From a virus: a DNA stretch of 64,000 nucleotides. The number at the start of each line of letters is the position of its first letter. Positions within the stretch are counted from its first letter, which is position 1. Positions 1,298 to 64,000 of the stretch are shown here, in pieces. The position numbers and the translations under genes are program-made. Location: the IMG/VR virus record IMGVR_UViG_3300027690_000096, one strand, 5' to 3'. A model generated the notes under the pieces. That model did no database searches. It was not told the origin of the DNA and saw only the letters and a list, made by a program, of their open reading frames with translations.

Positions 1298-1826
1298 AAC
1301 AATAATAACAGCAATACTGATATCTGTCTTACTGATATCAGCAGCCTTTGCGCACAAGCCATACATCATCGGCAAGACAAAAAATGACATCCTTGTAAAA
1401 GAACCAGAGATATCCAAAGCATACTACGGAGAACTTAAAGGCGATGATATGTTTTATGTGATATCTTCAGACACGGATTTCGAGCTTTATGTCAACATAC
1501 TGGCTCCTGACCTATCGCCTGAAACACAACATAATAACAGCGATTTATCACTCTGGATAACAGACAATAATAACCTTGACATCCGACTTAAAGGCGAAGA
1601 CTGGAACTGGACAAAGTTCTATGAGGAATACGGAAGAGATAATTACCTTAAAGGCGCAGAATACAAAGCCAACGTATCATCTGGAATATATTACATCGTA
1701 GTCTACAGCAAAACAAACTCAGAGAAATATGCTCTCGTTATAGGCGAAAAGGAAGACTTTAATCTCTTCACATACATATCAGCATTCATAAAAGCAATAT
1801 ACCTCGACTGGTGGTTTTTCGAATGA
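1281..1826 (+). CDS. Secreted hypothetical protein
   Basis: Signal peptide (MNKTIITAILISVLLISAAFA), beta-rich body, aromatic C-terminal helix. Confidence 0.7.
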   Translation: MVFMNKTIITAILISVLLISAAFAHKPYIIGKTKNDILVKEPEISKAYYGELKGDDMFYVISSDTDFELYVNILAPDLSPETQHNNSDLSLWITDNNNLDIRLKGEDWNWTKFYEEYGRDNYLKGAEYKANVSSGIYYIVVYSKTNSEKYALVIGEKEDFNLFTYISAFIKAIYLDWWFFE

Positions 1827-2146
1827 TTGGCATACGATTGAGTTGGGAATGCGTAAATTGCGGGAACGTAATCAAGACAGTCTCTCCTTTTTGGGACGCT
1901 GAAGTCAGAAAGAAAATAGTTGAGCCCAAGAGATGCGGTTGCGGAAGAAAAGGCGAATTCAGACTTTTGAATTTCAGCAGATGCACATACCTTGTCCTTC
2001 CAGAAGGGACAAGGATTGTTGATAAGGATGGAAACACTGTATATGAGGAGAATAGCGAATCAACTGAAGCAGAAGAATCAGGGCTATCAGCAGAAAACAA
2101 TAACATAAGTTACAGCGATGATGACGATGAAACAATCAAAGACTAG
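1811..2146 (+). CDS. Small Zn-finger protein resembling the MCM zinc finger, with acidic tail
   Basis: ECVNCGNVIKT...EPKRCGCGRKGEFR aligns by eye with ECPSCGNIIPT...EPNHCGCGRRGKFR of the MCM at 56700-58781. Confidence 0.7.
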   Translation: MVFRMIGIRLSWECVNCGNVIKTVSPFWDAEVRKKIVEPKRCGCGRKGEFRLLNFSRCTYLVLPEGTRIVDKDGNTVYEENSESTEAEESGLSAENNNISYSDDDDETIKD

Positions 2147-2321: not shown

Positions 2322-3377
2322 ATGAACCTCTCAACTGAGTTATCATTGGCTGAATTGACCCCTGAAGTCATTGCGCAAATAGACTTGAGAGTTGCAGGAC
2401 AGATTGTCAGAGGCAGAGCAATACACCTGTCCCACAAGGTCAACGAAGAGCTAATGCAACCTATCAGTCATTGGCTTGACGACCCAGACTGGATGACTCG
2501 GTTTACTGTATATGATGGCGAATTGCCTAATTGGGCAGTTTATAAGCAAAAACAGCGAGAGTGGGATGAATACCAGAAACAAGAACAAGCTATTAAGATG
2601 CGGTTGTATTGGTCAGAGGTTACTAGACTAAGGAACATGAGATCAGAAGTTTCAAAGATGTTAGCTGAATCAAGACTATCTAATGACATTGACATACAAC
2701 CCACAGACACGCCATGCGCAGACAATCCTTGCAGTGAAGATTACATCTCGCCTTTGCTTGAATCATACAGCCCAATCGCTGAACACAAGCGAAACATAAG
2801 ACAGGAATTCATCCAATCCCTTAGCCAGTCGATATCAAACCTTTTGCCGTGGCGAACCATCCTATTGTCGGAGATAAGCGAAAGCCTAAACCGAAGCCAG
2901 TCTGATTCACTTTCACTCTCAAGCCTTCAGATATATTATGAAGAAGACAAAAAGAAAGACATCGCTTCTAAGCTGATGCATCTATTACAGCTTGACAAAG
3001 ACGGCGACATCACAATTTCACAATCTGAGCCTTTCGGGGAAATATCTGTATCAATACCTTCTTTAGCTGGTATCGACTCCATAAAAACAAACACCAACAT
3101 CAACACCTACATTGAAAACAAGAATCCCCCAGATTCTTATAGTAATACACACAATCCAGTTGAAGAATGCAGATACGCTTTCCAAACAAATCGATTCCTC
3201 TCTCTGGAAGGCTCAGAACTTTCAAACAAACATCTGATTGACTATCCGTCTGACATCAACATTCAGGACACAGACGGGAACACTTACCTATTCGACTGGA
3301 AACAGCTCAGCAATGCCCAGAGGAACAAGGTCATTGCCGATATAAAATCCAACAAAATACTATGCAAGGCGATATAG
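2322..3377 (+). CDS. Hypothetical protein containing a ScpA/kleisin-like C-terminal winged-helix motif
   Basis: Segment ASKLMHLLQLDKDGDITISQSEPFGEISV matches the remembered ScpA pattern LL.L...g.I.i.Q.e.FG.I. Confidence 0.55.
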   Translation: MNLSTELSLAELTPEVIAQIDLRVAGQIVRGRAIHLSHKVNEELMQPISHWLDDPDWMTRFTVYDGELPNWAVYKQKQREWDEYQKQEQAIKMRLYWSEVTRLRNMRSEVSKMLAESRLSNDIDIQPTDTPCADNPCSEDYISPLLESYSPIAEHKRNIRQEFIQSLSQSISNLLPWRTILLSEISESLNRSQSDSLSLSSLQIYYEEDKKKDIASKLMHLLQLDKDGDITISQSEPFGEISVSIPSLAGIDSIKTNTNINTYIENKNPPDSYSNTHNPVEECRYAFQTNRFLSLEGSELSNKHLIDYPSDINIQDTDGNTYLFDWKQLSNAQRNKVIADIKSNKILCKAI

Positions 3378-4989: not shown

Positions 4990-5568
4990 ATGACTCCCAA
5001 AACAAAATCCAAGCAAAATAGGATATATAAGCAGAAACTTTTCTTAGTTTCGTTGCGAGATAAACTCATTGAGTTTGATGATCCAAATCCGTCAATCATC
5101 ACTCACGACAGCTATGAATACATTGTCAAGAACATCTCAGGCATTGGCAGGATTCCAGCTATCCGCTTTTTTCCATATGGTAGAACCGTCAAAATAAAGG
5201 CTGATATAATGCGTTCTGCTAATATACATGACCATAAGCTTGAGAAAGAGATAGATGAAATTCGGGCAAAATACACACCAAAAGTCGCAAAGGACAAGGA
5301 AAGCCGTATCCTTGCAAGAAGGTTTGAATCCTATTGGAACAGCTATTGGCGAGGCGTAAGAACCGCTATTAATCGTATCGAGCAAGCACAAAAGCTCTTT
5401 ATCACGAGCAAATCTGAAACCATCAGTAAGCCTATGCAAATCCTGATGGGAAACAAGCTGAATATGATTCATAAGAATAATCAAACTAATCAAGATAATC
5501 AAACTAATCAAAATAATCAAAATCAGAAAACTAAATCGTATGCAGACGAACTCATGGAGGTAGATTAA
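4990..5568 (+). CDS. Hypothetical basic protein with C-terminal NQT/NQD tandem repeat
   Basis: ORF track; repeat at about 5478-5525. Confidence 0.65.
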   Translation: MTPKTKSKQNRIYKQKLFLVSLRDKLIEFDDPNPSIITHDSYEYIVKNISGIGRIPAIRFFPYGRTVKIKADIMRSANIHDHKLEKEIDEIRAKYTPKVAKDKESRILARRFESYWNSYWRGVRTAINRIEQAQKLFITSKSETISKPMQILMGNKLNMIHKNNQTNQDNQTNQNNQNQKTKSYADELMEVD

Positions 5569-6784: not shown

Positions 6785-7288
6785 ATGCCTAGAAGAAAAG
6801 AAGTTGATAATAAAGCCCTGCTCAAAGATATCAAAGAAGGAATCTCTCAAGCAGATTTGTTAAAGAAATATGGCTTTAAAAGTGCAATTTCGTTAAAAAT
6901 GGCACAGCTCAAAGCTCTTGAAGAAGAACAAGGTATAATCCCAATCAAAGGAACAGGCAGATCAAGGAAATCTAAACCTATTGAATTAAATGTAAAAATC
7001 AATTCAAGAGGCTCTTTAATACTGCCAAAAGTCCTAATTGAAAGCATGGACTTCAAGCAAGGCGAAAGCTTTGAAGTAAAAAGAACTCCATCGGGTATCA
7101 TGCTGAAGTCTGTTGAAGAATCACGAACCGCTCAACAGCAGTCAGAACAAGAACCTTCAGATACTCAATCATCCGAACAAGCGTCTGAACAATCCCACCT
7201 GGGAGACCAGCCTGATAAGGCAGATAAGGCTGATAAGGTAGAAAAAGCTGAAAAGAAAGAAAGGAAAGCAAAAAAGACTGAAGATTAA
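6785..7288 (+). CDS. AbrB/MazE/SpoVT-family DNA-binding protein with N-terminal helical domain and low-complexity tail
   Basis: KINSRGSLILPKVLIESMDFKQGESFEV is a swapped-hairpin AbrB motif; AAGGAG RBS. Confidence 0.75.
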   Translation: MPRRKEVDNKALLKDIKEGISQADLLKKYGFKSAISLKMAQLKALEEEQGIIPIKGTGRSRKSKPIELNVKINSRGSLILPKVLIESMDFKQGESFEVKRTPSGIMLKSVEESRTAQQQSEQEPSDTQSSEQASEQSHLGDQPDKADKADKVEKAEKKERKAKKTED

Positions 7289-7697: not shown

Positions 7698-8225
7698 ATG
7701 AAACAAGCGGACTATCATGCAAAACTCAAGATTGCTAAGTCAGATAAGATAGCTTTAGATAGATATAAGATATATAGAGTGACAGACCCTATCCAGTTTG
7801 CCTATTTATTCTTCCCTGCAAGAAACGCAACACATTCAAGAGCAGCATTCTTGGCTATATATTTTGAGATCAAGAATGCTGAAAAGCAAAGACTACCAAC
7901 TACTGAGCATATACCTGAAAAATATGACATCAATAGAGCAACGGTCATAAAAGCAAGGACAAAGATGGTAAGTCTCGGGCTTATATCAAAACAAAGATAT
8001 GGTTGGATATTTTGCAGTGTCTTTAAGAACACACTTGAAAAATTACTTGAGTTGATAGAAACCTATAAAAGTCCTATTGAAAGGATAAGCCAGCTTGAAG
8101 GCGAAAAAATGTATATAGAAATGGCTAAAGGAGAACTCAAAAAAGAAAATCAAGAAGATGGTGATGAATTCATCTTTGGCAAAACAAAAAAATGGATTAG
8201 AAGAATCCATATTGATGATGATTAA
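7698..8225 (+). CDS. Winged-helix-type DNA-binding hypothetical protein
   Basis: IPEKYDINRATVIKARTKMVSLGLI is HTH-like. Confidence 0.55.
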   Translation: MKQADYHAKLKIAKSDKIALDRYKIYRVTDPIQFAYLFFPARNATHSRAAFLAIYFEIKNAEKQRLPTTEHIPEKYDINRATVIKARTKMVSLGLISKQRYGWIFCSVFKNTLEKLLELIETYKSPIERISQLEGEKMYIEMAKGELKKENQEDGDEFIFGKTKKWIRRIHIDDD

Positions 8226-8839: not shown

Positions 8840-9769
8840 ATGCTTGATAATATTTTTTTAACTAAACATTTCGATTATTTAGAGAAAGAAGATAGAATGG
8901 CAGTCCGTTCAGACTGCTTAAAAGTTCTATCACAAATAAAAGATAATTCAATCAACCTTATCTTTGCAGACCCACCATATAACATAGGCAAGGATTTTGG
9001 TAACGTAAAGGATAAACTAGCTAAAGATGATTACCTCTCATGGTGTAAGCTATGGATAGATGAATGCTGGCGTATTTTGGCTCACGATGGAACATTCTAT
9101 TTTATGACTGCAACTCAGAATATGTCATATCTTGACGTATATGTTGATGAAAAATATAATGTTCTTTCAAGAATAGTATGGTTTTATGATAGTTCAGGTG
9201 TGCAGTCAAAGAACTATTATGGGTCATTATATGAGCCTATAATAATGCTTGTAAAAAATCCTAAAAAATACACATTCAATGCCTCTGATATTCTTATTGA
9301 GGCAAGAACTGGTGCTGTCCGAAAACTGATAGATTATAGAAAAGACCCACCTCAACCATATAATCATAAGAAAGTTCCAGGTAATGTATGGGAGTTCCCA
9401 CGTGTAAGGTATCGTATGAAAGAATATGAGAATCATCCCACACAAAAACCTTCAGCACTTCTTGAAAGGATTATACTTGCATCAAGCAATCCTTGTGATA
9501 TAGTCCTTGATCCTTTTGCTGGAACTTTCACAACAAATGAAGTTGCATATCAAAAAGGTAGAAAAACAATAGGTATAGAAATAAATGAGGATTTCTATAA
9601 GATTGGTCTACGTCGGCTTAAAATAATAAAGGAATATAATGGTGAACAGCTTGAGCGTGACCTAAGTAGGAAAACCAATAACTTATCAAAACATGTCAGA
9701 GATAACGAAGTTAACAAATGCACGGAATATAAACCACCTGTTCAAAACATACTTTTTAATCAGATATGA
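8840..9769 (+). CDS. yhdJ: Beta-class DNA adenine methyltransferase, YhdJ-like
   Basis: DPPY near N-terminus, HPTQKP, DPFAGT SAM motif at C-terminus; YEPI..VKNPKKYTFNA..I..EARTGA.RKLIDYRK resembles YhdJ. Confidence 0.88.
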   Translation: MLDNIFLTKHFDYLEKEDRMAVRSDCLKVLSQIKDNSINLIFADPPYNIGKDFGNVKDKLAKDDYLSWCKLWIDECWRILAHDGTFYFMTATQNMSYLDVYVDEKYNVLSRIVWFYDSSGVQSKNYYGSLYEPIIMLVKNPKKYTFNASDILIEARTGAVRKLIDYRKDPPQPYNHKKVPGNVWEFPRVRYRMKEYENHPTQKPSALLERIILASSNPCDIVLDPFAGTFTTNEVAYQKGRKTIGIEINEDFYKIGLRRLKIIKEYNGEQLERDLSRKTNNLSKHVRDNEVNKCTEYKPPVQNILFNQI

Positions 9770-11623: not shown

Positions 11624-12103
11624 ATGACAATGCTAAACAAAATCATCTCAGGCGGACAGACGGGAGCAGACCGAGCAGGGCTTGACATAGCCCTTGATAA
11701 AGGCATACTTCATGGTGGCTGGATTCCTAAAGGAAGAAAGACTGAAGACGGAACACTCCCAGAGCGATACCATCTGCAGGAAATGACTACAACGAGCTAT
11801 CCGAAGCGAACAGAAAAGAATATCCTTGATTCGGATGGAACCATAATCATATCGCATGGCAACCTCACAGGAGGCTCACTCCTTACTCTAAAGCTTGCAA
11901 GACAGCATAATAAACCATTCATTCACATCGACTTGACAGAAAACTCAATCACTAAATCAGCAGAACATCTCACCAGGTGGATCATAGCCAACGAAATCAA
12001 GACTCTCAACGTAGCTGGCTCAAGAGCAAGCAAAGACCATGAGATATACAACAAGACAAAAGAAGTCTTAAAGATAGCTATCGAAAGCCTCATCTATAAT
12101 TAA
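11624..12103 (+). CDS. SLOG-superfamily protein (putative molybdenum carrier/YpsA-like)
   Basis: ISGGQTGADRAGLD...GGWIPKGR.TEDG, RTEKNILDSDGT, LNVAGSR. Confidence 0.88.
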   Translation: MTMLNKIISGGQTGADRAGLDIALDKGILHGGWIPKGRKTEDGTLPERYHLQEMTTTSYPKRTEKNILDSDGTIIISHGNLTGGSLLTLKLARQHNKPFIHIDLTENSITKSAEHLTRWIIANEIKTLNVAGSRASKDHEIYNKTKEVLKIAIESLIYN

Positions 12104-14433: not shown

Positions 14434-16044
14434 ATGAAAAAACAAATACTAAAATATCTAACAAAAGAAAACCAGTATTATCCGACTCCAAAAGAGCTTA
14501 TCAATGACATACTTGCTAAGGTTGATGAATCCAATCGATATGACTCAATGCCTGAAGAGATACATTTCCTTGAACCATGCGCAGGCGACGGAGAGATATG
14601 CAGAACAGTCAGGGATTATTTCAAAGAGGAGCATAAAAGAATTGAGATTAAAATAAAATGTATCGAAATTGAGCCAACGCTAAGAAACAGCCTTACAGGT
14701 CAGGGATTCAACGTAATCTCATCCGACTTTGAAAAGTTTGACGGTAAACCCTTCTATGACTTAATCATAATGAACCCGCCATTTTCTAAAGGAGCAAGGT
14801 TTCTTCTTAAGGCTTACAGCCTCTTAACATCAGGCGGAAGACTTGTCTGCATCCTCAACGCTGAAACAATAAAAAACAAATGCACAAAAGAAAGAGAACA
14901 GCTTTCGCACTTAATAGAAAGGACAGGCGAGGTTGAATTCATCGGAAACGCTTTCCAATCAGAAGATACAGAAAGAAACACCGATACAGAGATAGCGGTT
15001 GTTTACCTGCAAAAGCCAGCCTATGAAAACGAATTTGACCCTTTCGGTGGAATAAATGACAACGTATTGACCGAAGAAGAGAAAGCCATTGACGAGCTTA
15101 AACAAAGGCTATCCAGCGAAGGCACAGAAAACAGTCAGCTCATAACATTTGATAAGGTTGAGAATGCAATCAACCTATACAGGAACTGCACAAAACAGAT
15201 ATTTAGCGGAATTGATACAATCCAGCAAATCAAGACAGGATTATCATACCTCAACAAAGAAGCAAAGGAGTTTGACATCAACCTTGAACAGTTCTTTAAG
15301 ATAATCCTTGAAAACGAGCCAGAGAAAGCCAAAGAAGAATCAATCAAAGTCTTACGAAAGATGATATGGAGCTATGTAATCAAGTTCTGCAACATGGATC
15401 AGTATCTATTCCACAGGCAAAGGCAAGACTTCTATGACAAGCTTGACAAGGGAAGCGGAACACTGCCTTTCACAAAAGATAACATCAACCAATTCTTCAG
15501 TAATCTATTCCTGCAAAAGAACGAATATTTTAAGCAAGGAATTGAAGACCTATTCAATGAGATAACCAGCTATCACAATGGCAACACTAAACATAGTGAT
15601 GGGTGGAAGACAAACAAAAACTGGAAAATCAACAAAAAGATTATAGTAAAATGGGGGTTAGTTGATTACACTGATTATAGTAAATACAGTAGATATGATT
15701 CAAAAAATAAATATGGTAAATTTGATTGTAAAGGTAATTACGACAGCAATTGGGTAGATGACCTTGATAAGATTGTCAGAAAAATCCAGCCAATAGGTTC
15801 ATCAGGATTAACAATCAAAGATGCCTTAAACAATAGATTCAAGTCTCTAGGCACTGTCTATGTTGGAGAATCTTATGACAATACCGCAGAAACGCCATAC
15901 TTCAATTTAAAGTTTTGGAAAAAAGGCACACTGCATATAGTGTTCAAAGACAACAAAATCCTTGAAGAGTTAAATCTTATAGGAGCAAAGCTAAGAAGAG
16001 ACTTAGGCTATGATGACTATGGTAAAAAGCCAGTCAAAGAATAA
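14434..16044 (+). CDS. N6-adenine methyltransferase with DUF4942-type C-terminal domain
   Basis: YYPTP, LEPCAGDG, IMNPPF (gamma class); C-terminal KNWKINKKII...FWKKGTLHI. Confidence 0.85.
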   Translation: MKKQILKYLTKENQYYPTPKELINDILAKVDESNRYDSMPEEIHFLEPCAGDGEICRTVRDYFKEEHKRIEIKIKCIEIEPTLRNSLTGQGFNVISSDFEKFDGKPFYDLIIMNPPFSKGARFLLKAYSLLTSGGRLVCILNAETIKNKCTKEREQLSHLIERTGEVEFIGNAFQSEDTERNTDTEIAVVYLQKPAYENEFDPFGGINDNVLTEEEKAIDELKQRLSSEGTENSQLITFDKVENAINLYRNCTKQIFSGIDTIQQIKTGLSYLNKEAKEFDINLEQFFKIILENEPEKAKEESIKVLRKMIWSYVIKFCNMDQYLFHRQRQDFYDKLDKGSGTLPFTKDNINQFFSNLFLQKNEYFKQGIEDLFNEITSYHNGNTKHSDGWKTNKNWKINKKIIVKWGLVDYTDYSKYSRYDSKNKYGKFDCKGNYDSNWVDDLDKIVRKIQPIGSSGLTIKDALNNRFKSLGTVYVGESYDNTAETPYFNLKFWKKGTLHIVFKDNKILEELNLIGAKLRRDLGYDDYGKKPVKE

Positions 16045-22428: not shown

Positions 22429-24489
22429 ATGTTATCCATTGATGAAAAGCTTAGGATATTGCAACCCATACTCGGGACAGAGAAAGTCTTAGGGTTTCGT
22501 AGGTATTATTACATCAAGAATGATTTCAGGGACAAAAAGAGGATTGAGAATCATATTGACCTTCTGATTAGCAGGTATGCAAAGAAAGGCATTGAAGAAG
22601 AGATTATACTGCCACCGCCTGATCCAGAGAGATGCAAAGGCGATATTGCAATAGGTAGAGTCGAATACCTCGGAGTCAAGAAAAGTAATTTTGAGCTTAA
22701 ACTAAAAGACATAAACAGGCATGTAGGCATATTCGGTTCAACAGGCTCAGGTAAAACAACATTTGCGAGAAACGTAATCCGAAAGCTTCACAGAAGGAAA
22801 ATACCTTTCATAGTATTTGATTGGGAAAAATCATATCGAAGTCTTGTGAGAGACATGCCAGATGTCAGGGTGTTCACAGTCGGGACAGACATAAACCCTC
22901 TATTCATCAATTTCTTAACAGTCCCGCCCGGAATACAGTATGACGAATATATCAAGTCAGTCATAGCAGTCATATCAGAAGATTATATAGGCGGAATCGG
23001 AGCAGATACAATGCTTCTCACATACATGGAGAAAGCATACGATGAAACCAAAAATCCATTCTTTGCAGACTTAAAAGAGATAATAGTCAGAGAAATAACC
23101 AAAGACATGAAAGGCAAAGGCAGGCTTGCAGGCAGATCAGGGCTATGGAAAGAATCCGTATCAAGGCAAATCACGTTCATGTCGAAAGGTTCAGCAGGAA
23201 ACATAATCAACACAAGAAACCATTATCCGCTTGAAGAATTATTCCAAAGACCAGTAGTGCTTGAGTTCGGTGGAATCAAGAGTCCGCATGACAGGAAATT
23301 CTTCATCCACATAATCCTGAACTGGTTATCCATATACAACCAATACATGGGAATACAATCAGAGAATCTTAGGCAGGCTATCATATTTGAAGAGTTTCAT
23401 AACATCGCAATACAGAGCAAAGATGATAATATGGTATCAAACCTTTTCAGGGAAAGCCGAAAATACGGTATTGGGTTGTTTGCTCTTGACCAGACGCCTT
23501 CAGAGATTCCTAACTCAATCTTTGCCAACATGAACGTCAAGGTCAGCTTCTCGCTTAACACAAGCAGGGATATATCTGCAATGTCAAAAGCGATGAACCT
23601 TGACATGATGAAAGCCAGATATTTAGGTATGCTTGACACGGGGAAAGCAATCGTAAACATCAAACAGAGGTATAATGATTCGTTCCTTATACAAGCTGAA
23701 TATATCAAGATTGAGGAGAATATGGCAGATGAAGAGCTAAAAGAGTTCATGAAGCCATTCACAAACGAACACACGCAAAATAACACTCTGAATCCTAATC
23801 AGGGCAAATCAAGCAGTTCACAGATAACTGATACTATCACCCCAACTGAAAAACTCGTTATGTCAAATGTCATTGAGCATCCGCTGTTAGGCATTGATAA
23901 ACGAACAAAACTATTAGGTCTTCACTCGTCGGAAATGTCACAGATTCATAAAAGCATGGAAGAGAAAGGCATTATAAGGACTGCAACGATTGACAGAAAG
24001 AAATTGATTGAATTGACAGATAAAGGCAAGGAGATTGCCATAGATGAAGGATTTCAGATTGACCGAAGGAATAGCAGAGGAGGTATTGAACACTTTTACT
24101 GGACTGAACAAGTTTGCCAGTATCTCGGTAAACTTGAATTTCAGCCTGCTAAGGAAATGTTTAACATCGACATAACGGATGTAAGACAAGGATTGGCGAT
24201 TGAGATTGAGACAGGCAAAAGCGATATCAAGAAAAATGTTCTCAAGCTGATGTCTTCAAGGCTCACGAATTGTTATATGCTATCAACAACAAAAATATTT
24301 GAGGTTAAACTCAAAGATATTGTAGATGATACGCTAAGAGATATGCAAACAAAAAAGCCAGAAAAAGAAATAAAAGCCATGTTCATAGGAGATTTTTTGA
24401 AGCTTGCAAAAGACAAAATCATAAGCCAAAACAAACAAGACCTGCCTCAAATCCATACCATCGAAATCCCTCCAAATCAATCGCTTTAG
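22429..24489 (+). CDS. HerA/VirB4/TraG-like (DUF87) P-loop ATPase with C-terminal wHTH and possible nuclease-like domain
   Basis: Walker A GSTGSGKT, Walker B IIFEEFH, RESRKYGIG..ALDQTPS; C-terminal AIEIETGK. Confidence 0.88.
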   Translation: MLSIDEKLRILQPILGTEKVLGFRRYYYIKNDFRDKKRIENHIDLLISRYAKKGIEEEIILPPPDPERCKGDIAIGRVEYLGVKKSNFELKLKDINRHVGIFGSTGSGKTTFARNVIRKLHRRKIPFIVFDWEKSYRSLVRDMPDVRVFTVGTDINPLFINFLTVPPGIQYDEYIKSVIAVISEDYIGGIGADTMLLTYMEKAYDETKNPFFADLKEIIVREITKDMKGKGRLAGRSGLWKESVSRQITFMSKGSAGNIINTRNHYPLEELFQRPVVLEFGGIKSPHDRKFFIHIILNWLSIYNQYMGIQSENLRQAIIFEEFHNIAIQSKDDNMVSNLFRESRKYGIGLFALDQTPSEIPNSIFANMNVKVSFSLNTSRDISAMSKAMNLDMMKARYLGMLDTGKAIVNIKQRYNDSFLIQAEYIKIEENMADEELKEFMKPFTNEHTQNNTLNPNQGKSSSSQITDTITPTEKLVMSNVIEHPLLGIDKRTKLLGLHSSEMSQIHKSMEEKGIIRTATIDRKKLIELTDKGKEIAIDEGFQIDRRNSRGGIEHFYWTEQVCQYLGKLEFQPAKEMFNIDITDVRQGLAIEIETGKSDIKKNVLKLMSSRLTNCYMLSTTKIFEVKLKDIVDDTLRDMQTKKPEKEIKAMFIGDFLKLAKDKIISQNKQDLPQIHTIEIPPNQSL

Positions 24490-25444: not shown

Positions 25445-25930
25445 TTGGAGGAAAAAAATATGTGGAATGAACCAAGCAAAGAAAGATTAGATAAAGTGCC
25501 AAAGCTGTATGCAACAGAAGGAATACCTGTCCAGGACAAAGAGATACACCTGCATTTTTTCATAGGCGGAACAGATTATTATATATCCGAGTTTGACGGA
25601 GAGGATATCATGTTTGGGTTTTGCATCCTAAACAATGATTTAGAGATGGCTGAATGGGGATATATATCCTTAGCAGAACTCAGAGAAATAAAGGTCAAAG
25701 GGTGGCTTGAGGTTGATTGCGAACTTGAAGAGTATTGGACAGTGAAGACAGCGAAAGAAGTAAAACAGATTGCTGATGCCTGCGGATGGGTTACTGAAAC
25801 CCAGAAAGGAGATGAAGATGATTATGCAGACCAATCTTTCAATAAACATTATGGATTTAGTGGAGAAGACATTTCGGGAAGGAATACTGGAAATGGACTG
25901 TCCTGTTTGCGGAGCAATCATCATAACTGA
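25445..25930 (+). CDS. DUF2958-family protein
   Basis: PKLYATE...IHLHFFIGGTDYYISEFD...FGF.......EWGYISLAEL. Confidence 0.82.
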   Translation: MEEKNMWNEPSKERLDKVPKLYATEGIPVQDKEIHLHFFIGGTDYYISEFDGEDIMFGFCILNNDLEMAEWGYISLAELREIKVKGWLEVDCELEEYWTVKTAKEVKQIADACGWVTETQKGDEDDYADQSFNKHYGFSGEDISGRNTGNGLSCLRSNHHN

Positions 25931-26515: not shown

Positions 26516-27055
26516 GTGGCAGTCATGCAAACAATGAAACAGATGTCTTTCATCGACAGTTATGAGAAACAGTTCTGGAAGGATTTGCGGTCTGGCAAAT
26601 TCGCAAAGATGGTCAGAGAAGAATCAAGAGGGCAATACCTAAGAAGTTCAACAGAAGCTTTCAATATCCTGAAACCGATTTATGCGGATGCCATCGACAT
26701 AGAGAGGATGTATTGCATATTCATGGACACAAAGAACAATATCATTTCGATTGACAAAGTATCTCAAGGCTCATTGACTTCATCAGCAGTATATCCAAGA
26801 GAACTTATCAAACTGGCTCTCAAATACATGGCTGGCTCGATTGTAATCAGCCATAACCATCCATCAGGAGATCCGCAACCTTCACAAGAAGATAAGGAAA
26901 TCACTCTCAGGCTGGCGTTTGCTTTCAAGTCAATAGATATCAATCTGTTAGACCACATCATTGTTGGCAATACATATTACAGCTTTGCCGATAACGGTAT
27001 CATGGAAACGATAAACAGCAAATTCAGGCAGGAAACAACATTCAAATCCATATAG
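26516..27055 (+). CDS. radC: RadC-like JAB/MPN-domain protein
   Basis: E.....MDTKN.II......GSL....VYPRE......HNHPSGDPQPSQED..IT......LLDHIIVG. Confidence 0.93.
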   Translation: MAVMQTMKQMSFIDSYEKQFWKDLRSGKFAKMVREESRGQYLRSSTEAFNILKPIYADAIDIERMYCIFMDTKNNIISIDKVSQGSLTSSAVYPRELIKLALKYMAGSIVISHNHPSGDPQPSQEDKEITLRLAFAFKSIDINLLDHIIVGNTYYSFADNGIMETINSKFRQETTFKSI

Positions 27056-27750: not shown

Positions 27751-27789
27751 TGCAAATTCTACAAGGTTTTAGCCTGAAAGGAGGCAGAT

Positions 27790-28257
27790 ATGACTTTTGT
27801 GGGTATTGTGGGAGCAAGGAAATATAAATGCAAAAATTCGGTTAAAAACCTCATTGTTTCGCTGCCAGAAGATTCAGTGATTGTAACAAGCAATTGCTCA
27901 GGGGTCTGCTCATGGTCACAAGGATTTGCCAGGGAAAGAGGTCTTGAGGTTCTTGTATATGCCCCAGACCTTGAAAACATCCGTTCAAAGTTCGATGTGG
28001 CTGATAGGTATTACATCAGAAACAAAGAGCTTGTTGAGAAGTGCGACCTGTTGCACGCATTCATCAGTAAAGCCGATGGTTACTCTGGGGGAACAAAGTT
28101 CGAAGTCGATTATGCAATCAAGATAGGTGTGCCAGTCAAGGCGCATCATGAAGAAGGCAAAAGCGAGATTTTCCAGCAGTTCAGGATTCCGTTCAAGAGC
28201 GAGGATAACCTTTTCTTCCAGAGATGGGAATCGTTCTTCACAGAAACATTTGCTTAG
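27790..28257 (+). CDS. SLOG-superfamily (DprA/SMF-like) protein
   Basis: VGIVGAR, IVTSNCSGVCSW, RNKELVEKCD.LHAF, GGT...VDYAIK.G.PV. Confidence 0.65.
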   Translation: MTFVGIVGARKYKCKNSVKNLIVSLPEDSVIVTSNCSGVCSWSQGFARERGLEVLVYAPDLENIRSKFDVADRYYIRNKELVEKCDLLHAFISKADGYSGGTKFEVDYAIKIGVPVKAHHEEGKSEIFQQFRIPFKSEDNLFFQRWESFFTETFA

Positions 28258-28940
28258 AACAGACAGCATATAACCTAAAGGAGGATGTCATGCAGACTAA
28301 ACATGTATTGAACGAGAGAGTCAATATAGAAGTCAAGGATAACGAGATTAATTCAGACTGGCATCTAAGCAGATTAGCCCATGAACTGTATTGGTGGTAT
28401 GATTTCATCAACATATTATTTTTCAAAGAAGAGCCTGTGCCTGTGCCAGTAATATCGTTTGAAAAGACCAGTGTAAAAACTCTAGGTCATTTTGTAATCG
28501 GAAAGAATGCGATAGGGCTATCAAATAACATCAACGTAAACAGGATATATCTTCACAGACCATTATGGGAAGTGATTGCTACTCTCACTCACGAGCTTTG
28601 CCATTCATGGCAACAAACATACGGAAAGCTTGAAAGCCGAAACTGGTATCATGGCAAAGAGTTCCAGCAGAAGATGCTTGAGATTGGCATTGTAACAAAC
28701 AACAAAGGACAGCACTTAGCAGTCTCGGACCCATTTGTTTACCTTCTTAGAAGGCACGGAGTCAATGTTTGCATTGAACCCAACATTGAAGGGATATTAG
28801 AGATTGACACAGAACCAAAGAAGAAAGGCAAATCCAAGCTTAAGAAATGGTCATGCGGCTGCACTAATATAAGGGTAGCAATTACCGATTTTAAAGCGAT
28901 ATGTTTGAAATGTGAGAACGAGTTCGAATTGGTCGAATGA
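28224..28940 (+). CDS. SprT-like zinc metalloprotease (likely start 28288, MQTKH)
   Basis: HELCH, HGKEF, C-terminal WSCGC.NIR...CLKC. Confidence 0.88.
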   Translation: MGIVLHRNICLEQTAYNLKEDVMQTKHVLNERVNIEVKDNEINSDWHLSRLAHELYWWYDFINILFFKEEPVPVPVISFEKTSVKTLGHFVIGKNAIGLSNNINVNRIYLHRPLWEVIATLTHELCHSWQQTYGKLESRNWYHGKEFQQKMLEIGIVTNNKGQHLAVSDPFVYLLRRHGVNVCIEPNIEGILEIDTEPKKKGKSKLKKWSCGCTNIRVAITDFKAICLKCENEFELVE

Positions 28941-42713: not shown

Positions 42714-44114
42714 TCATATCAAATATTGCCATATCAAGAGCAGTATTCCGATTACGAAAGCTCCTATTCCTACAGGCAAGCCTCCTAATGCGACTAAGAC
42801 AATTCCTAATATGACTGCCATCCAGCCGAAGATTATCCATAACATACTGCTTCCAGAGGTTAGGACATTACCTACCCCTACTGTAGCAACTTTCTGATAA
42901 TCTGGTATCGGACCGACAAGCTGATATTCGTTATGGTTCTCAAGTTGTTCATTAGTAAGGTCTTTATAGCATTTGTGCCTTGTTAAAAAATATACGTCAA
43001 ACTGCCCGTCACCGAGTATTGATTTTGGGACTTGAAGCTGTATGACTGATGTCTCTCCTTTCTTAAGCATGAATTGTTTATGCACATTCTCAGGATGTGT
43101 CGGGTCGCATGTCATCTGGCTTGAGATAAATGCAAAGTGAGGTTTGCCTTTTGGAACGACCTGCATTTCAAGGATATAAGTATCAATCATGTCATCGCCA
43201 GTGTTAGTGAACTCTGCTCGACCTATTACCTGTTCGGATGTTGGATCATAGTAAGCAGTTGTAGCTTTTGAGATTATGTTAGCTGAAGCTGATGGATTGA
43301 CTGCTCCTCCTCCTGAACCACTGCCTGAACCACCAGAACTTGAACAAGCGCCTACATCGACCCATTTACCAGTCTTACCTTCACATTGATAATTCCTGTC
43401 ATTAATGCACTCTTTACTTCCTGCATCGCCTGTTGGATGAAAGCAGTTTAGTGTGCAATCCTGATAATCTTTGTATGTCTCGCATGATTCAGTTGTTATC
43501 GTTCGGCTCTGTTTACCATCTGTGCAAGTGCCCCAGTTGGTTGACTTATAATCGCATGTATCAACTCCTGTGCATGTTGTCCAAGGGATGCATCTCTCAG
43601 TCTCAATACTTGACGGAGCGTTCTGACATGTCCTTACCCTGAGCATTTCGTCATCATCGCAGACTGCATATTTGCCACTTTTACCACAGCCCTTGGATGC
43701 AAAGTCTGAACATGTGTATTGAACAGTATAACAATTATACCTTTGCCAGTATGCAGCATTAGACGGAGCAGCTTTTGTGTTCTCGCCAGGATTAAGTGTA
43801 TCTTCACGGATAACTCTCCAGCTTGAGTCAAAGAACAGAACAACACAACCAGTCATGTCATCTGTAACCCCTGTCGGACCCGTGCACCAAACCCTGTAAC
43901 CTAAGTCAATTGAGGGTGTGCCCTGGTCATCTGGCAAATCTTGGCAGAGTCCGCCTTGGAAAACCCTAAGCTCTTTTGCAAGGCTTACAAAATTGCTATA
44001 CCTATCATCAGATGTTATTGGCAGATTGCCCTGCTGTGTTGCGTATGCAATAGATGATATTATCATCAGCATAGCTATAGCAAATATCAGTTTGATTGAA
44101 TTTTTTGTTTTCAT
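42714..44114 (-). CDS. Secreted Cys-rich protein (TSP1-like repeats) with Gly/Ser linker and C-terminal TM hairpin
   Basis: WGTCTDGKQSRTIT, CDDDEMLRVRTC, SSSGGSGSGSGGG. Confidence 0.75.
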   Translation of the reverse strand: MKTKNSIKLIFAIAMLMIISSIAYATQQGNLPITSDDRYSNFVSLAKELRVFQGGLCQDLPDDQGTPSIDLGYRVWCTGPTGVTDDMTGCVVLFFDSSWRVIREDTLNPGENTKAAPSNAAYWQRYNCYTVQYTCSDFASKGCGKSGKYAVCDDDEMLRVRTCQNAPSSIETERCIPWTTCTGVDTCDYKSTNWGTCTDGKQSRTITTESCETYKDYQDCTLNCFHPTGDAGSKECINDRNYQCEGKTGKWVDVGACSSSGGSGSGSGGGAVNPSASANIISKATTAYYDPTSEQVIGRAEFTNTGDDMIDTYILEMQVVPKGKPHFAFISSQMTCDPTHPENVHKQFMLKKGETSVIQLQVPKSILGDGQFDVYFLTRHKCYKDLTNEQLENHNEYQLVGPIPDYQKVATVGVGNVLTSGSSMLWIIFGWMAVILGIVLVALGGLPVGIGAFVIGILLLIWQYLI

Positions 44115-44148
44115 GTTTAAATAAACCTCCTTAGCCTATCTTATTATT

Positions 44149-56030: not shown

Positions 56031-56721
56031 AACAACTTCACAAAAGAGGATATCTTCTATATATGATTTTGTAGCAAAACTTGATGTGACAAATACTCAA
56101 AATATTAGTCTTCACTTTGAGAGAACTTTTAATGATATACTATCAATATTTTTTGATAAGTGGAAATGTAAATTAATTTATGTCTTATATAATGTTGAAA
56201 TTTCAAGTATATGGGAATTATCTAATCATTTCAACCTTTGTTATAATTATAGAAAAGATATGAATACTATATTAATGGATCTTGAAACAAAGAACATCGT
56301 TGAAGAAATTTATAGCGATACTGTTGAGTGTAAAACACTTCGTAAAGTATGGGAAATACTTCATCCTAATGGGAAGAGGACATATAGAAAAACAAAACTT
56401 TTCAAGTTATCTGATGATTTTAAATCAGTATTTGAATTATTCTTAGACGAGGTTTATTCAAAATATATTTACAGAAGTGAATATCTAAATATTGAAATAA
56501 GAAAAATATCTTTTCATAAAATCTATAATGAAATAATAGGAAAAGAGAAACAATCTTTAGTTCTTGATGAAAATTGCATAGGAAGATGCTTTAAATGTAA
56601 TCAACCTATCAGTAAAGACTCAACTGAATACATGAATATCTATGAAGGTGTAGTTCATAAGACATGCTTTAAGAACACTCCGCAAAAAGAAGCAATAACA
56701 TGGAAACAGAAACACAAATAA
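56008..56721 (+). CDS. Winged-helix plus Zn-finger protein (candidate initiator or MCM loader)
   Basis: ILMDLETKNIVEE...LFKL wHTH-like; CFKC...HKTC; overlaps the mcm start. Confidence 0.5.
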   Translation: MIQITNIETTSQKRISSIYDFVAKLDVTNTQNISLHFERTFNDILSIFFDKWKCKLIYVLYNVEISSIWELSNHFNLCYNYRKDMNTILMDLETKNIVEEIYSDTVECKTLRKVWEILHPNGKRTYRKTKLFKLSDDFKSVFELFLDEVYSKYIYRSEYLNIEIRKISFHKIYNEIIGKEKQSLVLDENCIGRCFKCNQPISKDSTEYMNIYEGVVHKTCFKNTPQKEAITWKQKHK

Positions 56722-58781
56722 CCACCTTCAGAAATATAATAGACTCATATTACTATGAATCTCTTATTGAATCTGTTAGGAATGGGAATAAATTCTTTGT
56801 GATAGATTTCCAAGATATTTCTAAGAGCAATATTGAACTTGCAGATGATTTGCTTGAAAACCCTGAAGAATGCCTTAAATCTGCAGGTATAGCAATATCT
56901 CAGTTTGACCTTCCTGTTTCACATACACCAGACATAATAATAAGAATCAAGAATCTTCCAAAAATACAAATAAAAAGAATAAGAGACCTCAGAAGCAAAC
57001 ATATTGGAAAATTTATCTGTTTAGAAGGAACTATAAGACAAAAGAGCGAGATAAGACCTCAGATAATCGCGGCAAAATTTGAATGTCCATCTTGTGGTAA
57101 CATCATACCAACTCTTCAGATTGACAGTAAATTTAAAGAACCAAATCACTGTGGTTGCGGAAGAAGAGGAAAATTTAGGATGATATCAAAAGACCTGATT
57201 GACGCTCAAAACGTAAAGCTTGAAGAAGACATTGACGCTCTTGACGGAGGAGAGCAACCAAAAAGACTTAACATATTCATGCAAGATGATTTAATCACTC
57301 CTCTGCTTGAGAAAAGAGCTTACCCAGGCTCAAAAATAAAGGTTAACGGGTATCTAAAAGAAACTCCAGTAATCCTAAAAAACGGTGGAAAAAGCACAAG
57401 ATTAGAATGGATATTTGAAGCCAATTATTTTGAATCAATTAATGAGGATTTTGGTGAAGTCAAGATAAGCGATAATGAAAAGATGGAAATCGAAATTATG
57501 TCTCAGGAAGATGATATAATCCATCGCTTAGTAAAATCAATCGCTCCTTCAATATATGGGCATGAAAGAATCAAAGAAGCCCTTCTTATTCAGCTTGTCG
57601 GAGGAGTTAAGAAATACCAGCAAGACGGAATGAAGATTAGAGGGGATATGCATGTCCTTCTTATAGGCGACCCAGGTTCTGGAAAATCTCAATTATTAAA
57701 GAGAATAAACAAAATCGCCCCAAAATCAAGATTTATAAGCGGTAAAGGTGCATCAGCCGCAGGACTAACGGCATCCGTAGTAAGAGATGATTTTATGGGT
57801 GGCTGGGCGCTTGAAGCTGGGGCATTAGTTCTAGCAAACAAAGGACTAATCTGTATTGACGAGCTTGACAAGATGTCAAAAGATGACACAAGCGCAATGC
57901 ACGAGGCCCTTGAAGGACAGCTTGTCACAATCTCAAAAGCTAATATTCAAGCAACTTTGAAATGCGAAACAACAGTCCTTGCAGCAGCCAACCCTAAGTT
58001 TGGTAAATTTGACCTTCACGCAAAAACAATAGCAGACCAGTTTGAACTGCCTTCGACATTGATAAATAGGTTTGACTTGATATTTCCTATAAAGGATATA
58101 CCAGACAACAAAAAAGATGAGAAATTAGCTAAATTCCTGATTAATGTCCACATAAAATCTAATAATCATAAAACTAATAATCAAAATACAGAGACCTCAA
58201 ATAATGTAAATAAGCAAATCATAGATAATAATAATATAATTGACACTGATATGCTTCGCAAATATATTGCCTATGTAAGAACATTAACACCTATAATAAC
58301 TGAAGAAGCAAGTAAGCAATTCGTTCAATATTATCTCAAGATGAGACAAAGCGGTTTAAAGGAAGGTTCAGTTAAATCTATACCTATATCAGCAAGACAG
58401 CTCGAAGGGCTTATAAGAATGTCAGAAGCATTTGCAAAACTAAGAATGCGAGATAAGGTAACAATTGAAGATGCGAATCAGGCAATAAACCTTCTTGATT
58501 TTTGTTTAAATCAAATAGCTTTTGATGATCAGACTGGAACGATTGACATAGACAGGATAACAACAGGCATAACAGCAAGCTCAAGAAACAATATTTCTAT
58601 CTTGAAAGATATAATTAATACGCTTGAAGATAAGTTTGGGAAATGTATTCCTATAAGCGAGATATCACTTGTTGCATCAGATAGAGGAATATCAGAAGAT
58701 AATCTTGAACCTACTCTTGATAAACTAAAAAAGGCAGGTGATGTATTCGAACCGAGAAGAGGATTTATTTCAAAATTTTGA
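56700..58781 (+). CDS. mcm: Archaeal MCM replicative helicase
   Basis: GDPGSGKS Walker A, IDELDKM Walker B, AAANPK.G.F, LINRFD and ISARQLE arginine motifs, Zn finger, C-terminal wHTH. Confidence 0.98.
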   Translation: METETQITTFRNIIDSYYYESLIESVRNGNKFFVIDFQDISKSNIELADDLLENPEECLKSAGIAISQFDLPVSHTPDIIIRIKNLPKIQIKRIRDLRSKHIGKFICLEGTIRQKSEIRPQIIAAKFECPSCGNIIPTLQIDSKFKEPNHCGCGRRGKFRMISKDLIDAQNVKLEEDIDALDGGEQPKRLNIFMQDDLITPLLEKRAYPGSKIKVNGYLKETPVILKNGGKSTRLEWIFEANYFESINEDFGEVKISDNEKMEIEIMSQEDDIIHRLVKSIAPSIYGHERIKEALLIQLVGGVKKYQQDGMKIRGDMHVLLIGDPGSGKSQLLKRINKIAPKSRFISGKGASAAGLTASVVRDDFMGGWALEAGALVLANKGLICIDELDKMSKDDTSAMHEALEGQLVTISKANIQATLKCETTVLAAANPKFGKFDLHAKTIADQFELPSTLINRFDLIFPIKDIPDNKKDEKLAKFLINVHIKSNNHKTNNQNTETSNNVNKQIIDNNNIIDTDMLRKYIAYVRTLTPIITEEASKQFVQYYLKMRQSGLKEGSVKSIPISARQLEGLIRMSEAFAKLRMRDKVTIEDANQAINLLDFCLNQIAFDDQTGTIDIDRITTGITASSRNNISILKDIINTLEDKFGKCIPISEISLVASDRGISEDNLEPTLDKLKKAGDVFEPRRGFISKF

Positions 58782-63182: not shown

Positions 63183-64000
63183 ATGCTTAAGCCAGCCAGA
63201 AAATCAGGTTTAGAATCTTTTGAATATTGGAACGACATCATTGAAACTCTTGACATGGGCGGTATGACTAGAGACCCATTAATACTCAAGGCTTGTAAGC
63301 TTTGCAACGAAACAGGGTATTATAAGCTACTTCGAGATATTCTAACAAGAAAACCTCAAATCCTTATGGCTGCAAAGCGAAACATATCTGAACAGAAAAA
63401 GTTTCCTTTCATGCCTTATCCTTGGAAACGTAAAGATTTAGCAAAGCTTTCAGGCAAATATGACATCGGCATAATAAACAACAATGGCGACCGAGCAGGA
63501 TTAGACCCTATTGATTTCACAAGAGGTTTATTCATCTGCGGTGAGACAGGCTCAGGAAAATCCTATCCGTCTTTAAGGCTGATGAAACAGATATTCTCTG
63601 AACCGATCGATAAGAGAGGCTTTAATGTAATCGTTGTTCAGTCTGTCAAGCGAGATGCAGATTTTTTGCTAAATACAAACAAAGATATAGTCATCCTTGA
63701 TTGGCAGGACATTCGAAGGTCTCCTTTATTTGTTGAACCTTGGGACAAACAAGCCTCAAAAATCAGTTCTTTTTGTGATGTTTACTCATCTGTCAATTGG
63801 TTAATGATGCACGGTCAACCTCTTCTAAGCAACACATTGAAAATATGCCTTAACAAATTCGGCAACGACACAAACTTTGAACATCTGTTTGACCATGTTG
63901 ACCTTTCAGCAAAATACATCGGTCTTCTTGGACCAGAACACCGCAACTCCAGAGACCATTTGAAGTTCTCTTTATTCTCTTTCAAAGAGACGGGCAGTAT
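63183..64000 (+). CDS. HerA/DUF87-like P-loop ATPase, 3'-truncated by the window (not in ORF track)
   Basis: Hand translation is open from ATG 63183 to the window end; GLFICGETGSGKS Walker A at about 63540-63563. Confidence 0.8.
   Translation, partial: MLKPARKSGLESFEYWNDIIETLDMGGMTRDPLILKACKLCNETGYYKLLRDILTRKPQILMAAKRNISEQKKFPFMPYPWKRKDLAKLSGKYDIGIINNNGDRAGLDPIDFTRGLFICGETGSGKSYPSLRLMKQIFSEPIDKRGFNVIVVQSVKRDADFLLNTNKDIVILDWQDIRRSPLFVEPWDKQASKISSFCDVYSSVNWLMMHGQPLLSNTLKICLNKFGNDTNFEHLFDHVDLSAKYIGLLGPEHRNSRDHLKFSLFSFKETGS

What the first reader, a model, noticed from the sequence alone, without database searches (positions are those of the whole stretch)
2951..3050. Kleisin (ScpA)-like C-terminal motif with no SMC in the window
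Seen: ASKLMHLLQLDKDGDITISQSEPFGEISV lies inside the otherwise unrecognised ORF 2322-3377. Known: the ScpA/kleisin C-terminal winged helix has this pattern and binds the SMC head. No smc or scpB gene is visible here. Inference: it could be a kleisin decoy that hijacks host condensin or neutralises SMC-based defence such as Wadjet. It sits next to the MCM-finger mimic, which suggests a small host-takeover cluster.
Basis: partly seen in the sequence, partly recalled or inferred. Interest (0 to 1): 0.6.

Follow-up and report, generated by a model that had tools for sequence, protein, structure and literature searches.

The report
Orphan kleisin on a mobile element
A mobile genetic element carries its own divergent copy of the kleisin subunit that normally closes the chromosome-folding SMC ring. 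It carries no SMC gene, so the protein may borrow or block the host cell's SMC machine, which has not been described for a plasmid-like element.

Summary
The motif is in frame at 2964-3050, inside ORF 2322-3377 (351 aa, here called K).

**Kleisin homology.** K belongs to a conserved, unstudied family of about 109 clusters at 50% identity.
- The family profile matches only kleisin C-terminal winged helices in the PDB (best E 1.6e-5).
- It aligns to archaeal ScpA with hhalign P 1.3e-9.
- The AlphaFold model's best structural matches are ScpA-C and Scc1-C bound to SMC heads (Z 10.6).
- An N-terminal helix aligns only weakly to the SMC-neck helix of ScpA (P 5e-4).

**Context.**
- No SMC or ScpB gene is in the window or in 52 related loci.
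- Genomes that carry K also have their own Smc, and three of five their own ScpA.
- K is a core gene of integrative plasmid-like elements with Replic_Relax, ParA, integrase, and MCM or Orc1/Cdc6.
- It is paired with a 190-aa partner of unknown fold in 31 of 34 loci.

**Reading.** Most likely K is a surrogate kleisin that docks on host Smc for element maintenance. A decoy role and an exapted, SMC-independent role remain open, because no binding was tested. The proposed "takeover cluster" with the MCM-finger gene is not conserved. The host domain is unresolved: Desulfobacterota or DPANN archaea.

The scan had already noted orphan ScpA-like kleisins on plasmids of two other genomes. Those are different families.

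The parts
2322..3377 (+). K: 351-aa orphan kleisin-like protein (P0001)
   Evidence: Open ORF. The family has 33 close hits and 109 representative clusters. The AF2 model has mean pLDDT 79.6.
2355..2486 (+). N-terminal long helix (residues 12-55), a candidate counterpart of the SMC-neck-binding helix of ScpA
   Evidence: Helix 22-52 in the model. hhalign places residues 15-42 on the alpha-3 region of archaeal ScpA at P 5e-4, against 0.028 for a reversed control. Both K subgroups hit the same place. HMMER against the PDB finds no kleisin N-domain, so support is weak.
2487..2681 (+). Conserved middle region (residues 56-120) with invariant W71, Y74, K75, R79, Y96 and W97; basic in most members
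   Evidence: Alignments A1 and A2. Mean net charge across the family is +8.9; P0001 itself is +2.
2838..3065 (+). Kleisin C-terminal winged-helix domain (residues 173-248)
   Evidence: PDB profile hits are all kleisin C-terminal winged helices. hhalign gives P 1.3e-9 to DPANN ScpA. Foldseek's top hits are 1w1w_E, 6qpq, 5h66_C, 4i99 and 5xg3. VIA gives Z 10.6, rmsd 2.2, 70 of 70 residues to 4i99_C.
2964..3050 (+).
   Evidence: Invariant D213, K217, H220, L221, L222 and Q234. L218 and L222 align with Scc1 F528 and L532.
3069..3236 (+). Disordered Asn/Thr/Ser-rich linker (residues 250-305), long only in the window's subgroup
   Evidence: pLDDT below 50. This stretch is gapped in short family members.
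3237..3377 (+). Extra C-terminal beta-beta-alpha-beta mini-domain (residues 306-351) that canonical kleisins lack
   Evidence: pLDDT about 96. Conserved G319, W326, L329, Q333, R334, K336 and D340. It also occurs as stand-alone 65-90-aa proteins.
4990..5568 (+). c1: conserved 192-aa partner gene of K, fold unknown, with an acidic C-terminal tail
   Evidence: It follows K in 31 of 34 loci that have downstream sequence, and stop and start overlap in 11. The AF2 model has pLDDT 82.1. There is no PDB match: Foldseek E at least 0.14 and best VIA Z 5.8.
6785..7288 (+). c5: AbrB/MazE-type DNA-binding protein, a recurrent member of the module
   Evidence: Pfam MazE_antitoxin E 1.5e-4. Present in 10 loci.
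7698..8225 (+). c2: conserved 175-aa protein of the module, function unknown
   Evidence: Present in 20 loci. Only a weak GntR-type helix-turn-helix hint, E 0.014.

Best explanation
ORF 2322-3377 encodes a divergent but genuine member of the kleisin superfamily. It is carried as a core gene by a family of integrative, plasmid-like mobile elements that encode no SMC protein. It keeps the C-terminal winged helix that in ScpA, Rad21 and Scc1 clamps onto the cap of an SMC ATPase head. It probably also keeps a remnant of the N-terminal helix that binds the SMC neck. It has a basic, conserved middle region, an added C-terminal mini-domain, and a dedicated 190-aa partner (c1, window 4990-5568). The most likely mechanism is that K, with c1, docks on the host cell's own Smc heads in place of or beside ScpA. 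This would create an element-specific Smc complex that helps fold, resolve or segregate the element's DNA, which is a maintenance function. What is shown: the homology, the fold, the conservation of interface-type residues, the synteny, and the absence of an element-borne SMC. What is inferred: binding to host Smc, and the purpose of that binding.
For: - **Sequence homology.** Profile A2 against the PDB gives 12 top hits, all kleisin C-terminal winged helices (Scc1, RAD21, B. subtilis and Pyrococcus ScpA), with E 1.6e-5 to 3e-3. hhalign to DPANN ScpA gives P 1.3e-9, probability 96%. The K profile finds the canonical ScpA C-terminus in 345 of 400 other DPANN-phylum genomes at E <= 1e-5.
- **Fold.** The structure search puts ScpA-C and Scc1-C in SMC-head complexes on top.
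[quoted passage not shown] They align with L218 (L or F in the family) and invariant L222. Q544, F548 and G549 align with Q234, F238 and G239.
- **Charge.** The winged helix is acidic (mean net charge -2.2; -5 here), unlike DNA-reading winged helices.
- **N-terminal helix.** It aligns colinearly to ScpA alpha-3 at P 5e-4, and both subgroups reproduce this.
- **Host machinery.** All five K-carrying genomes searched have a full-length Smc elsewhere, and three of the five have a canonical ScpA.
- **Position in the element.** K lies directly after ParA plus a small gene, or after a Replic_Relax gene, and before c1, in elements with integrase, Orc1/Cdc6 or MCM.
Against: - No binding was tested or modelled; no multimer prediction was available.
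- The N-terminal homology is weak and HMMER does not see it.
- c1 is not a ScpB or kite-type protein.
- Most genome-assigned copies lie in Desulfobacterota, yet K's winged helix resembles archaeal ScpA far more than Desulfobacterota ScpA (P 1e-9 against 7e-6; 345 of 400 against 5 of 400 genomes). That is not what a mimic of the host's own kleisin would be expected to look like if the host is bacterial.
- A position in the maintenance module is suggestive only.
Confidence: 0.45

Rival explanations
1. Decoy or inhibitor. K titrates SMC heads. The target would be either the host condensin or an SMC-type anti-plasmid defence such as Wadjet (JetABCD). Blocking it would protect the element.
For: K is an orphan kleisin with a conserved head-binding motif and no SMC on the element. 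The element carries many anti-restriction-type genes: methylases, RadC, SprT-like and DUF2958. JetA appears among the structural matches at Z 8.0.
Against: The winged helix is closest to ScpA and Scc1, not to JetA or MukF (Z 10.6 against 8.0; no JetA or MukF hit in the profile searches). A decoy needs only one interface, yet K keeps a long conserved scaffold, a probable N-terminal helix and a coupled partner. K lies beside the replication and partition genes rather than inside the anti-restriction block.
Confidence: 0.2
2. Exapted kleisin-derived scaffold. K descends from a kleisin but no longer binds any SMC. It acts in the element's partition or replication complex with c1, ParA plus the small upstream protein, or Replic_Relax.
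For: The order ParA, small gene, K, c1 recurs in 9 loci. There is no SMC in any of 53 neighbourhoods. K has a basic middle region and an extra C-terminal domain that kleisins lack. The N-terminal kleisin domain is reduced.
Against: The most strongly conserved residues of the whole protein are exactly the kleisin signature of the recognition helix and wing. Many loci have K and c1 without ParA.
Confidence: 0.2
3. K is the kleisin of an unrecognised SMC-like ATPase of the element. That ATPase would be encoded in the unseen 10 kb of the contig or elsewhere on the element.
For: Kleisins normally work with a cognate SMC. About 10 kb of the contig is outside the window. A P-loop gene runs off the window end at 63183-63998.
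Against: That gene has nSTAND/HerA-type hits, and its Walker A lies at residue 134, not at the N-terminus as in SMC. No SMC_N hit lies on the K-bearing contigs of five genomes. No long coiled-coil ATPase recurs in 52 related loci.
Confidence: 0.08
4. Chance resemblance: a generic winged helix that is not related to kleisins.
For: The single-sequence Pfam hit is below the gathering score. Many MarR-type winged helices also align at Z 7-9.
Against: All top profile hits are kleisins. hhalign gives P 1.3e-9. There are reciprocal hits to ScpA in 345 of 400 genomes. Kleisin complexes rank first in two structure searches.
Confidence: 0.03

Closest known systems
ScpA, the kleisin of prokaryotic Smc-ScpAB (Pfam SMC_ScpA PF02616; structures 4I99, 5XG3, 5H66)
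   Same: The C-terminal winged helix has the same signature: a hydrophobic recognition helix, then a wing with Q, F-G and I. VIA gives Z 10.6, rmsd 2.2, 70 of 70 residues to Pyrococcus ScpA-C. hhalign gives P 1.3e-9 to DPANN ScpA. There is a colinear weak match of an N-terminal helix. Overall length is similar, about 270-350 aa.
   Different: K is not in an smc or scpB operon and no ScpB-type partner is present. The first 60 or so residues of the ScpA N-domain are missing. K has a conserved W/Y/K/R-rich middle region, basic in most members, and an added C-terminal mini-domain. It is carried by a mobile element in addition to the host's own ScpA. The SMC_ScpA model does not detect it in genome searches.
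Eukaryotic alpha-kleisins Rad21, Scc1 and Rec8 (Pfam Rad21_Rec8 PF04824; structures 1W1W, 6QPW, 8P0A)
   Same: These give the best Pfam and PDB sequence hits (23 of 26 members; E 1.6e-5). The Smc1-binding hot-spot positions F528 and L532 are matched by conserved hydrophobic residues.
   Different: K is prokaryotic, much shorter, has no Rad21_Rec8_N match, and has no separase or HAWK-binding regions.
JetA (Wadjet) and MukF kleisins of MksBEF/MukBEF-type systems
   Same: These kleisins are linked to plasmid biology, and a C-terminal winged helix is present (JetA Z 8.0).
   Different: They are encoded next to their own SMC (JetC, MukB) and kite (JetB, MukE) genes. They show no sequence-profile similarity to K. 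K has neither partner nearby.
Orphan ScpA-like genes on plasmids noted earlier in this scan (e1-4130687, e1-2900865)
   Same: The theme is the same: a kleisin-like gene without an SMC gene on a plasmid, next to recombinase or maintenance genes.
   Different: They are different protein families in different hosts, with no shared sequence words. They are AI notes that were not checked here.

Membership tests
Kleisin superfamily | C-terminal winged-helix domain of the kleisin type (homology and fold) | tested here: met
   Only kleisins appear among the profile hits. P is 1.3e-9 to ScpA. Z is 10.6 to 4i99_C and 6qpq_D.
Kleisin superfamily | The C-terminal domain binds the cap of an SMC ATPase head | not testable with these tools
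   No multimer prediction or experiment was available. The only indirect support is that the Scc1 F528 and L532 equivalents (L218, L222) are conserved and the domain surface is acidic.
Kleisin superfamily | N-terminal helical domain that binds the SMC neck coiled coil | tested here: inconclusive
   hhalign gives P 5e-4 over 28 columns to ScpA alpha-3, against 0.028 for a reversed control, and both subgroups reproduce this. There is no hit by HMMER against the PDB and no hit to Pfam Rad21_Rec8_N. The first two helices of the ScpA N-domain are absent.
Kleisin superfamily | Central region bound by kite (ScpB, MukE, JetB) or hawk subunits | tested here: inconclusive
   No ScpB was found in the window or related loci. 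The conserved partner c1 gave no kite or ScpB match by sequence or fold, but a weak or missing fold match does not exclude one.
Kleisin superfamily | Encoded with, or acting with, a cognate SMC protein | tested here: not met
   No SMC gene is in the 64-kb window, on the K contigs of five genomes, or in 52 related neighbourhoods. Host Smc genes exist elsewhere in those genomes.
Pfam SMC_ScpA (PF02616) / canonical ScpA | Score over the family's curated cut-off | tested here: not met
   P0001 has no hit. Eight of 26 members hit at E <= 1, best 5e-4. A genome search with PF02616 finds the hosts' ScpA but not K.
Pfam Rad21_Rec8 (PF04824) | Score over the gathering cut-off (22.7 bits) | tested here: not met
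   P0001 scores 18.2 bits, E 0.0015. 23 of 26 relatives match at E <= 1, best 1.9e-5. One relative (P0003) carries a precomputed PF04824 hit.
Wadjet JetA / MukF kleisins | Sequence or operon relationship to jetABCD or mukFEB | tested here: not met
   There are no JetA or MukF profile hits and only a generic fold match at Z 8.0. No jetB, jetC or jetD-like neighbours were found.

The most novel reading that the evidence does not exclude
A mobile element reprograms the host's SMC ring with its own surrogate kleisin of archaeal type plus a new partner protein. This would be the first case of a plasmid-like element using a private kleisin either to load host Smc onto itself or to disable it. The family appears in elements that carry archaeal-style replication genes (MCM, Orc1/Cdc6) yet sit in bacterial (Desulfobacterota) chromosomes.
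Probability: 0.35. Interest if true: 0.8.

Novelty: new variant of a known kind. Interest (0 to 1): 0.6.

Why it matters
SMC-kleisin rings fold and segregate chromosomes in all domains of life. SMC-type systems such as Wadjet also police plasmids. No mobile element is known to encode a stand-alone kleisin. If K engages host Smc, there are two possibilities. It may be a new plasmid-maintenance strategy, in which the element recruits a loop extruder through a private kleisin instead of through ParB. Or it may be a new counter-defence strategy. Either way it would also be a natural tool for probing how kleisin identity directs an SMC ring. The family is small, conserved and easy to test: two proteins and one host Smc head.

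Tried and rejected
- PHROGs gave no hit for K.
- IMG/VR viral contigs, PLSDB plasmids and INPHARED phages hold no relative.
- No whole genome is held for the window.
- c1 as a ScpB or kite protein is not supported: no match in PDB profile, Foldseek or VIA searches, best Z 5.8. The ESM Atlas gave no usable lead.
- HMMER search of the N-terminal profile against the PDB found no kleisin.
- The conserved upstream small genes (c7, c8, c4, c18) and c2 have no significant Pfam match, even at E 1.
- tRNA search for integration sites in nine loci and the window found none.
- The idea that K is simply the host's own ScpA is rejected. K-carrying genomes also hold a canonical ScpA. K occurs in 0 of 400 other genomes of each phylum sampled, while ScpA is near universal.
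- The idea of a conserved K plus MCM-finger cluster is rejected.
- Literature searches for mobile-element, viral or orphan kleisins found nothing relevant. The fusexin-element paper does not mention kleisin, ScpA or SMC.
- GC content of the loci does not separate hosts.

Full report
**Observation.** ORF 2322-3377 on the + strand encodes a 351-aa protein (P0001, here K). The quoted peptide is residues 215-243, nt 2964-3050. On its own, K gives one Pfam hit: Rad21_Rec8 (PF04824), residues 200-244, E 0.0015, 18.2 bits, below the 22.7-bit cut-off. It gives nothing in PHROGs.

**The family.** K is not an orphan sequence. A word-indexed search found 33 relatives at 31-49% identity over nearly the full length. 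A few are labelled by IMG as "Rec8/ScpA/Scc1 (kleisin family)", and one comes from a Woesearchaeota MAG. An exhaustive phmmer search found 109 representative clusters. Alignments A1 (26 sequences) and A2 (66 sequences) show five conserved blocks:
- an N-terminal helix;
- a W/Y/K/R-rich middle region;
- an S-N-L-L-P-W motif;
- the winged-helix block, with D213, K217, H220, L221, L222 and Q234 invariant in A1;
- a C-terminal 45-residue block.

**Is it a kleisin?** Several independent tests agree for the C-terminal winged helix.
- 23 of 26 members hit Rad21_Rec8 and 8 hit SMC_ScpA.
- The A2 profile against all PDB sequences returns 12 top hits that are all kleisin C-terminal domains: yeast Scc1, human RAD21, B. 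subtilis ScpA and Pyrococcus ScpA, with E 1.6e-5 to 3e-3. The next hit is at E 0.47 (the A1 version is).
- Profile-profile alignment to canonical ScpA sets that I extracted from genomes gives P 1.3e-9 (probability 96%) for DPANN archaeal ScpA and 6.7e-6 for Desulfobacterota ScpA.
- In the reverse direction, the K profile detects the C-terminus of the resident ScpA in 345 of 400 other genomes of the DPANN phylum at E <= 1e-5, but in only 5 of 400 Desulfobacterota. Six of the archaeal genomes in that tally are flagged unpublished (G765, G727, G648, G738, G801, G649).
- An AlphaFold2 model built on A2 has mean pLDDT 79.6, with structured parts above 90. Its best Foldseek matches are Scc1-C/Smc1 head, ScpA-C/Smc head and RAD21-C/SMC1A complexes.
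- A Foldseek-independent search puts 4i99_C (ScpA C-terminal winged helix; Z 10.6, rmsd 2.2, 70 of 70 residues), 6qpq_D (Z 10.6) and 1w1w_E (Z 9.8) on top, above generic MarR-type winged helices at Z 7-9.

The HMMER alignment to Scc1 places Scc1 F528 and L532 on K L218 (L or F across the family) and the invariant L222. Scc1 Q544, F548 and G549 fall on Q234, F238 and G239. The alleles mcd1-F528R and mcd1-L532R are described as unable to interact with cohesin (PMC9426526). The domain is net acidic (mean -2.2; -5 in K), which is unlike DNA-reading winged helices.

**The N-terminus is weaker.** After the winged helix is masked, the second-best hhalign alignment places K residues 15-42 on the alpha-3 region of archaeal ScpA, the helix that contacts the Smc neck. 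With only the N-terminal halves, P is 5e-4, against 0.028 for a reversed control. Both K subgroups independently hit the same place, at P 0.0017 and 0.025. However, HMMER of an N-terminal profile (A4) against the PDB finds no kleisin. Rad21_Rec8_N never hits. The first two helices of the ScpA N-domain are missing. I treat this feature as inconclusive.

**No SMC and no ScpB.**
- Pfam scans of about 60 window ORFs found neither.
- tblastn with Smc, RecN and SbcC-type heads from related genomes found nothing below E 0.3.
- The ORFs of at least 120 codons with a Walker A match are a HerA/TraG-like ATPase (22429-24489), MCM (56700-58781), an nSTAND/HerA-like gene cut by the window end, and two without any ATPase family hit (27778-28254 and 42717-44135). 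None has the motif near the N-terminus as SMC proteins do.
- The genomes that carry K have a normal Smc of about 1170 aa elsewhere (five of five), and three of five have a canonical ScpA. K is therefore an extra kleisin-like gene.

**Context.** I gathered 52 related loci: 7 from species-representative genomes and 45 from metagenomes. I then clustered their ORFs.
- K is followed by a protein of about 190 aa (c1; window 4990-5568) in 31 of 34 loci with enough downstream sequence. Stop and start overlap in 11 of them.
- Recurrent further members are c2 (window 7698-8225) and an AbrB/MazE-type protein (window 6785-7288).
- Upstream there is either a Replic_Relax (PF13814) gene, or ParA plus a small gene, and further out a tyrosine integrase with an excisionase-like HTH protein.
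- Some relatives carry Orc1/Cdc6 where the window has MCM. One relative (L024) shares the window's HerA-like ATPase and two other genes.
- The window also holds methylases, cpYpsA, RadC, DUF2958 and SprT-like genes, which are typical of transfer-element leading regions.
- K is thus a core gene of an integrative, plasmid-like element family. It is absent from IMG/VR, PLSDB and INPHARED.
- The MCM zinc-finger ORF next to K resembles the window's own MCM but lies beside K in no other locus.

**Partner c1.** It models well (pLDDT 82.1) but matches nothing in the PDB by profile, Foldseek or VIA, with best Z 5.8. It is not a tandem winged-helix kite. It ends in a conserved acidic tail.

**Host.** Six of the seven species genomes with K are Desulfobacterota. 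These include a single-cell genome and a locus inside a 576-kb Desulfovermiculus contig flanked by ordinary bacterial genes. The seventh is a 2.4-kb contig binned to Woesearchaeota, which falls in the window's subgroup. Full-length K was found in none of 400 other genomes of either phylum. Earlier notes of this scan disagree on the host. I leave it open. Both K subgroups look more like archaeal than Desulfobacterota ScpA. That fits an archaeal origin of the gene, and it sits awkwardly with a simple "mimic of the bacterial host's ScpA".

**Mechanism.**
- *Best reading (0.45).* K is a surrogate kleisin that, with c1, docks on host Smc heads and serves element maintenance. The homology, the fold, the conserved interface-type residues, the synteny with replication and partition genes, and the absence of an own SMC are shown. 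The binding and its purpose are inferred.
- *Rivals.* A decoy against condensin or an SMC-type defence (0.2). An exapted scaffold that no longer touches SMC (0.2). The kleisin of an unseen element SMC (0.08). Chance resemblance (0.03).

**Novelty.** Searches of the held literature found no description of a kleisin encoded by a plasmid, virus or integrative element without its SMC. This scan had noted orphan ScpA-like genes on plasmids of two other genomes. Those are unrelated families by sequence, which suggests a wider and unexplored theme.

Noticed in passing
window 4990-5568 (and 33 related loci): The partner protein c1 ends in a conserved acidic tail (K-S-Y-x-x-E-L-M-E-V-D/E) after a disordered spacer, which looks like a docking peptide. 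The fold has no PDB match.
   Followed up: partly
window 3237-3377: K's C-terminal beta-beta-alpha-beta mini-domain also exists as stand-alone 65-90-aa proteins (P0125, P0127, P0135, P0137, P0141). Its function is unknown.
   Followed up: no
window 1811-2146 and 56700-58781: The small zinc-finger ORF beside K clusters by BLASTP with the window's own MCM, but it is not next to K in any of 52 related loci.
   Followed up: partly
window 8840-28940: A block of genes typical of transfer-element leading regions: N6_N4 methylase (8840-9769), cpYpsA SLOG (11624-12103), DUF4942 methylase (14434-16044), HerA/TraG-like ATPase (22429-24489), DUF2958 (25445-25930), RadC (26516-27055) and SprT-like (28224-28940).
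   Followed up: no
L003:3894-7276: In the Olavius symbiont genome, a metallo-beta-lactamase-fold gene and a fused Prok-E2/ThiF/JAB protein (a ubiquitin-like conjugation system) sit just upstream of the ParA, small gene, K and c1 cassette.
   Followed up: no
L013, L015, L020, L024: Sister elements carry an Orc1/Cdc6 initiator where the window carries MCM. These are archaeal-style replication genes on elements whose genome-assigned copies lie mostly in Desulfobacterota.
   Followed up: partly
L004, L039, L040, L042, L047: A 3'-5' exonuclease gene (RNase_H_2 / PolB-exo type) is inserted between K and c1 in five loci.
   Followed up: no
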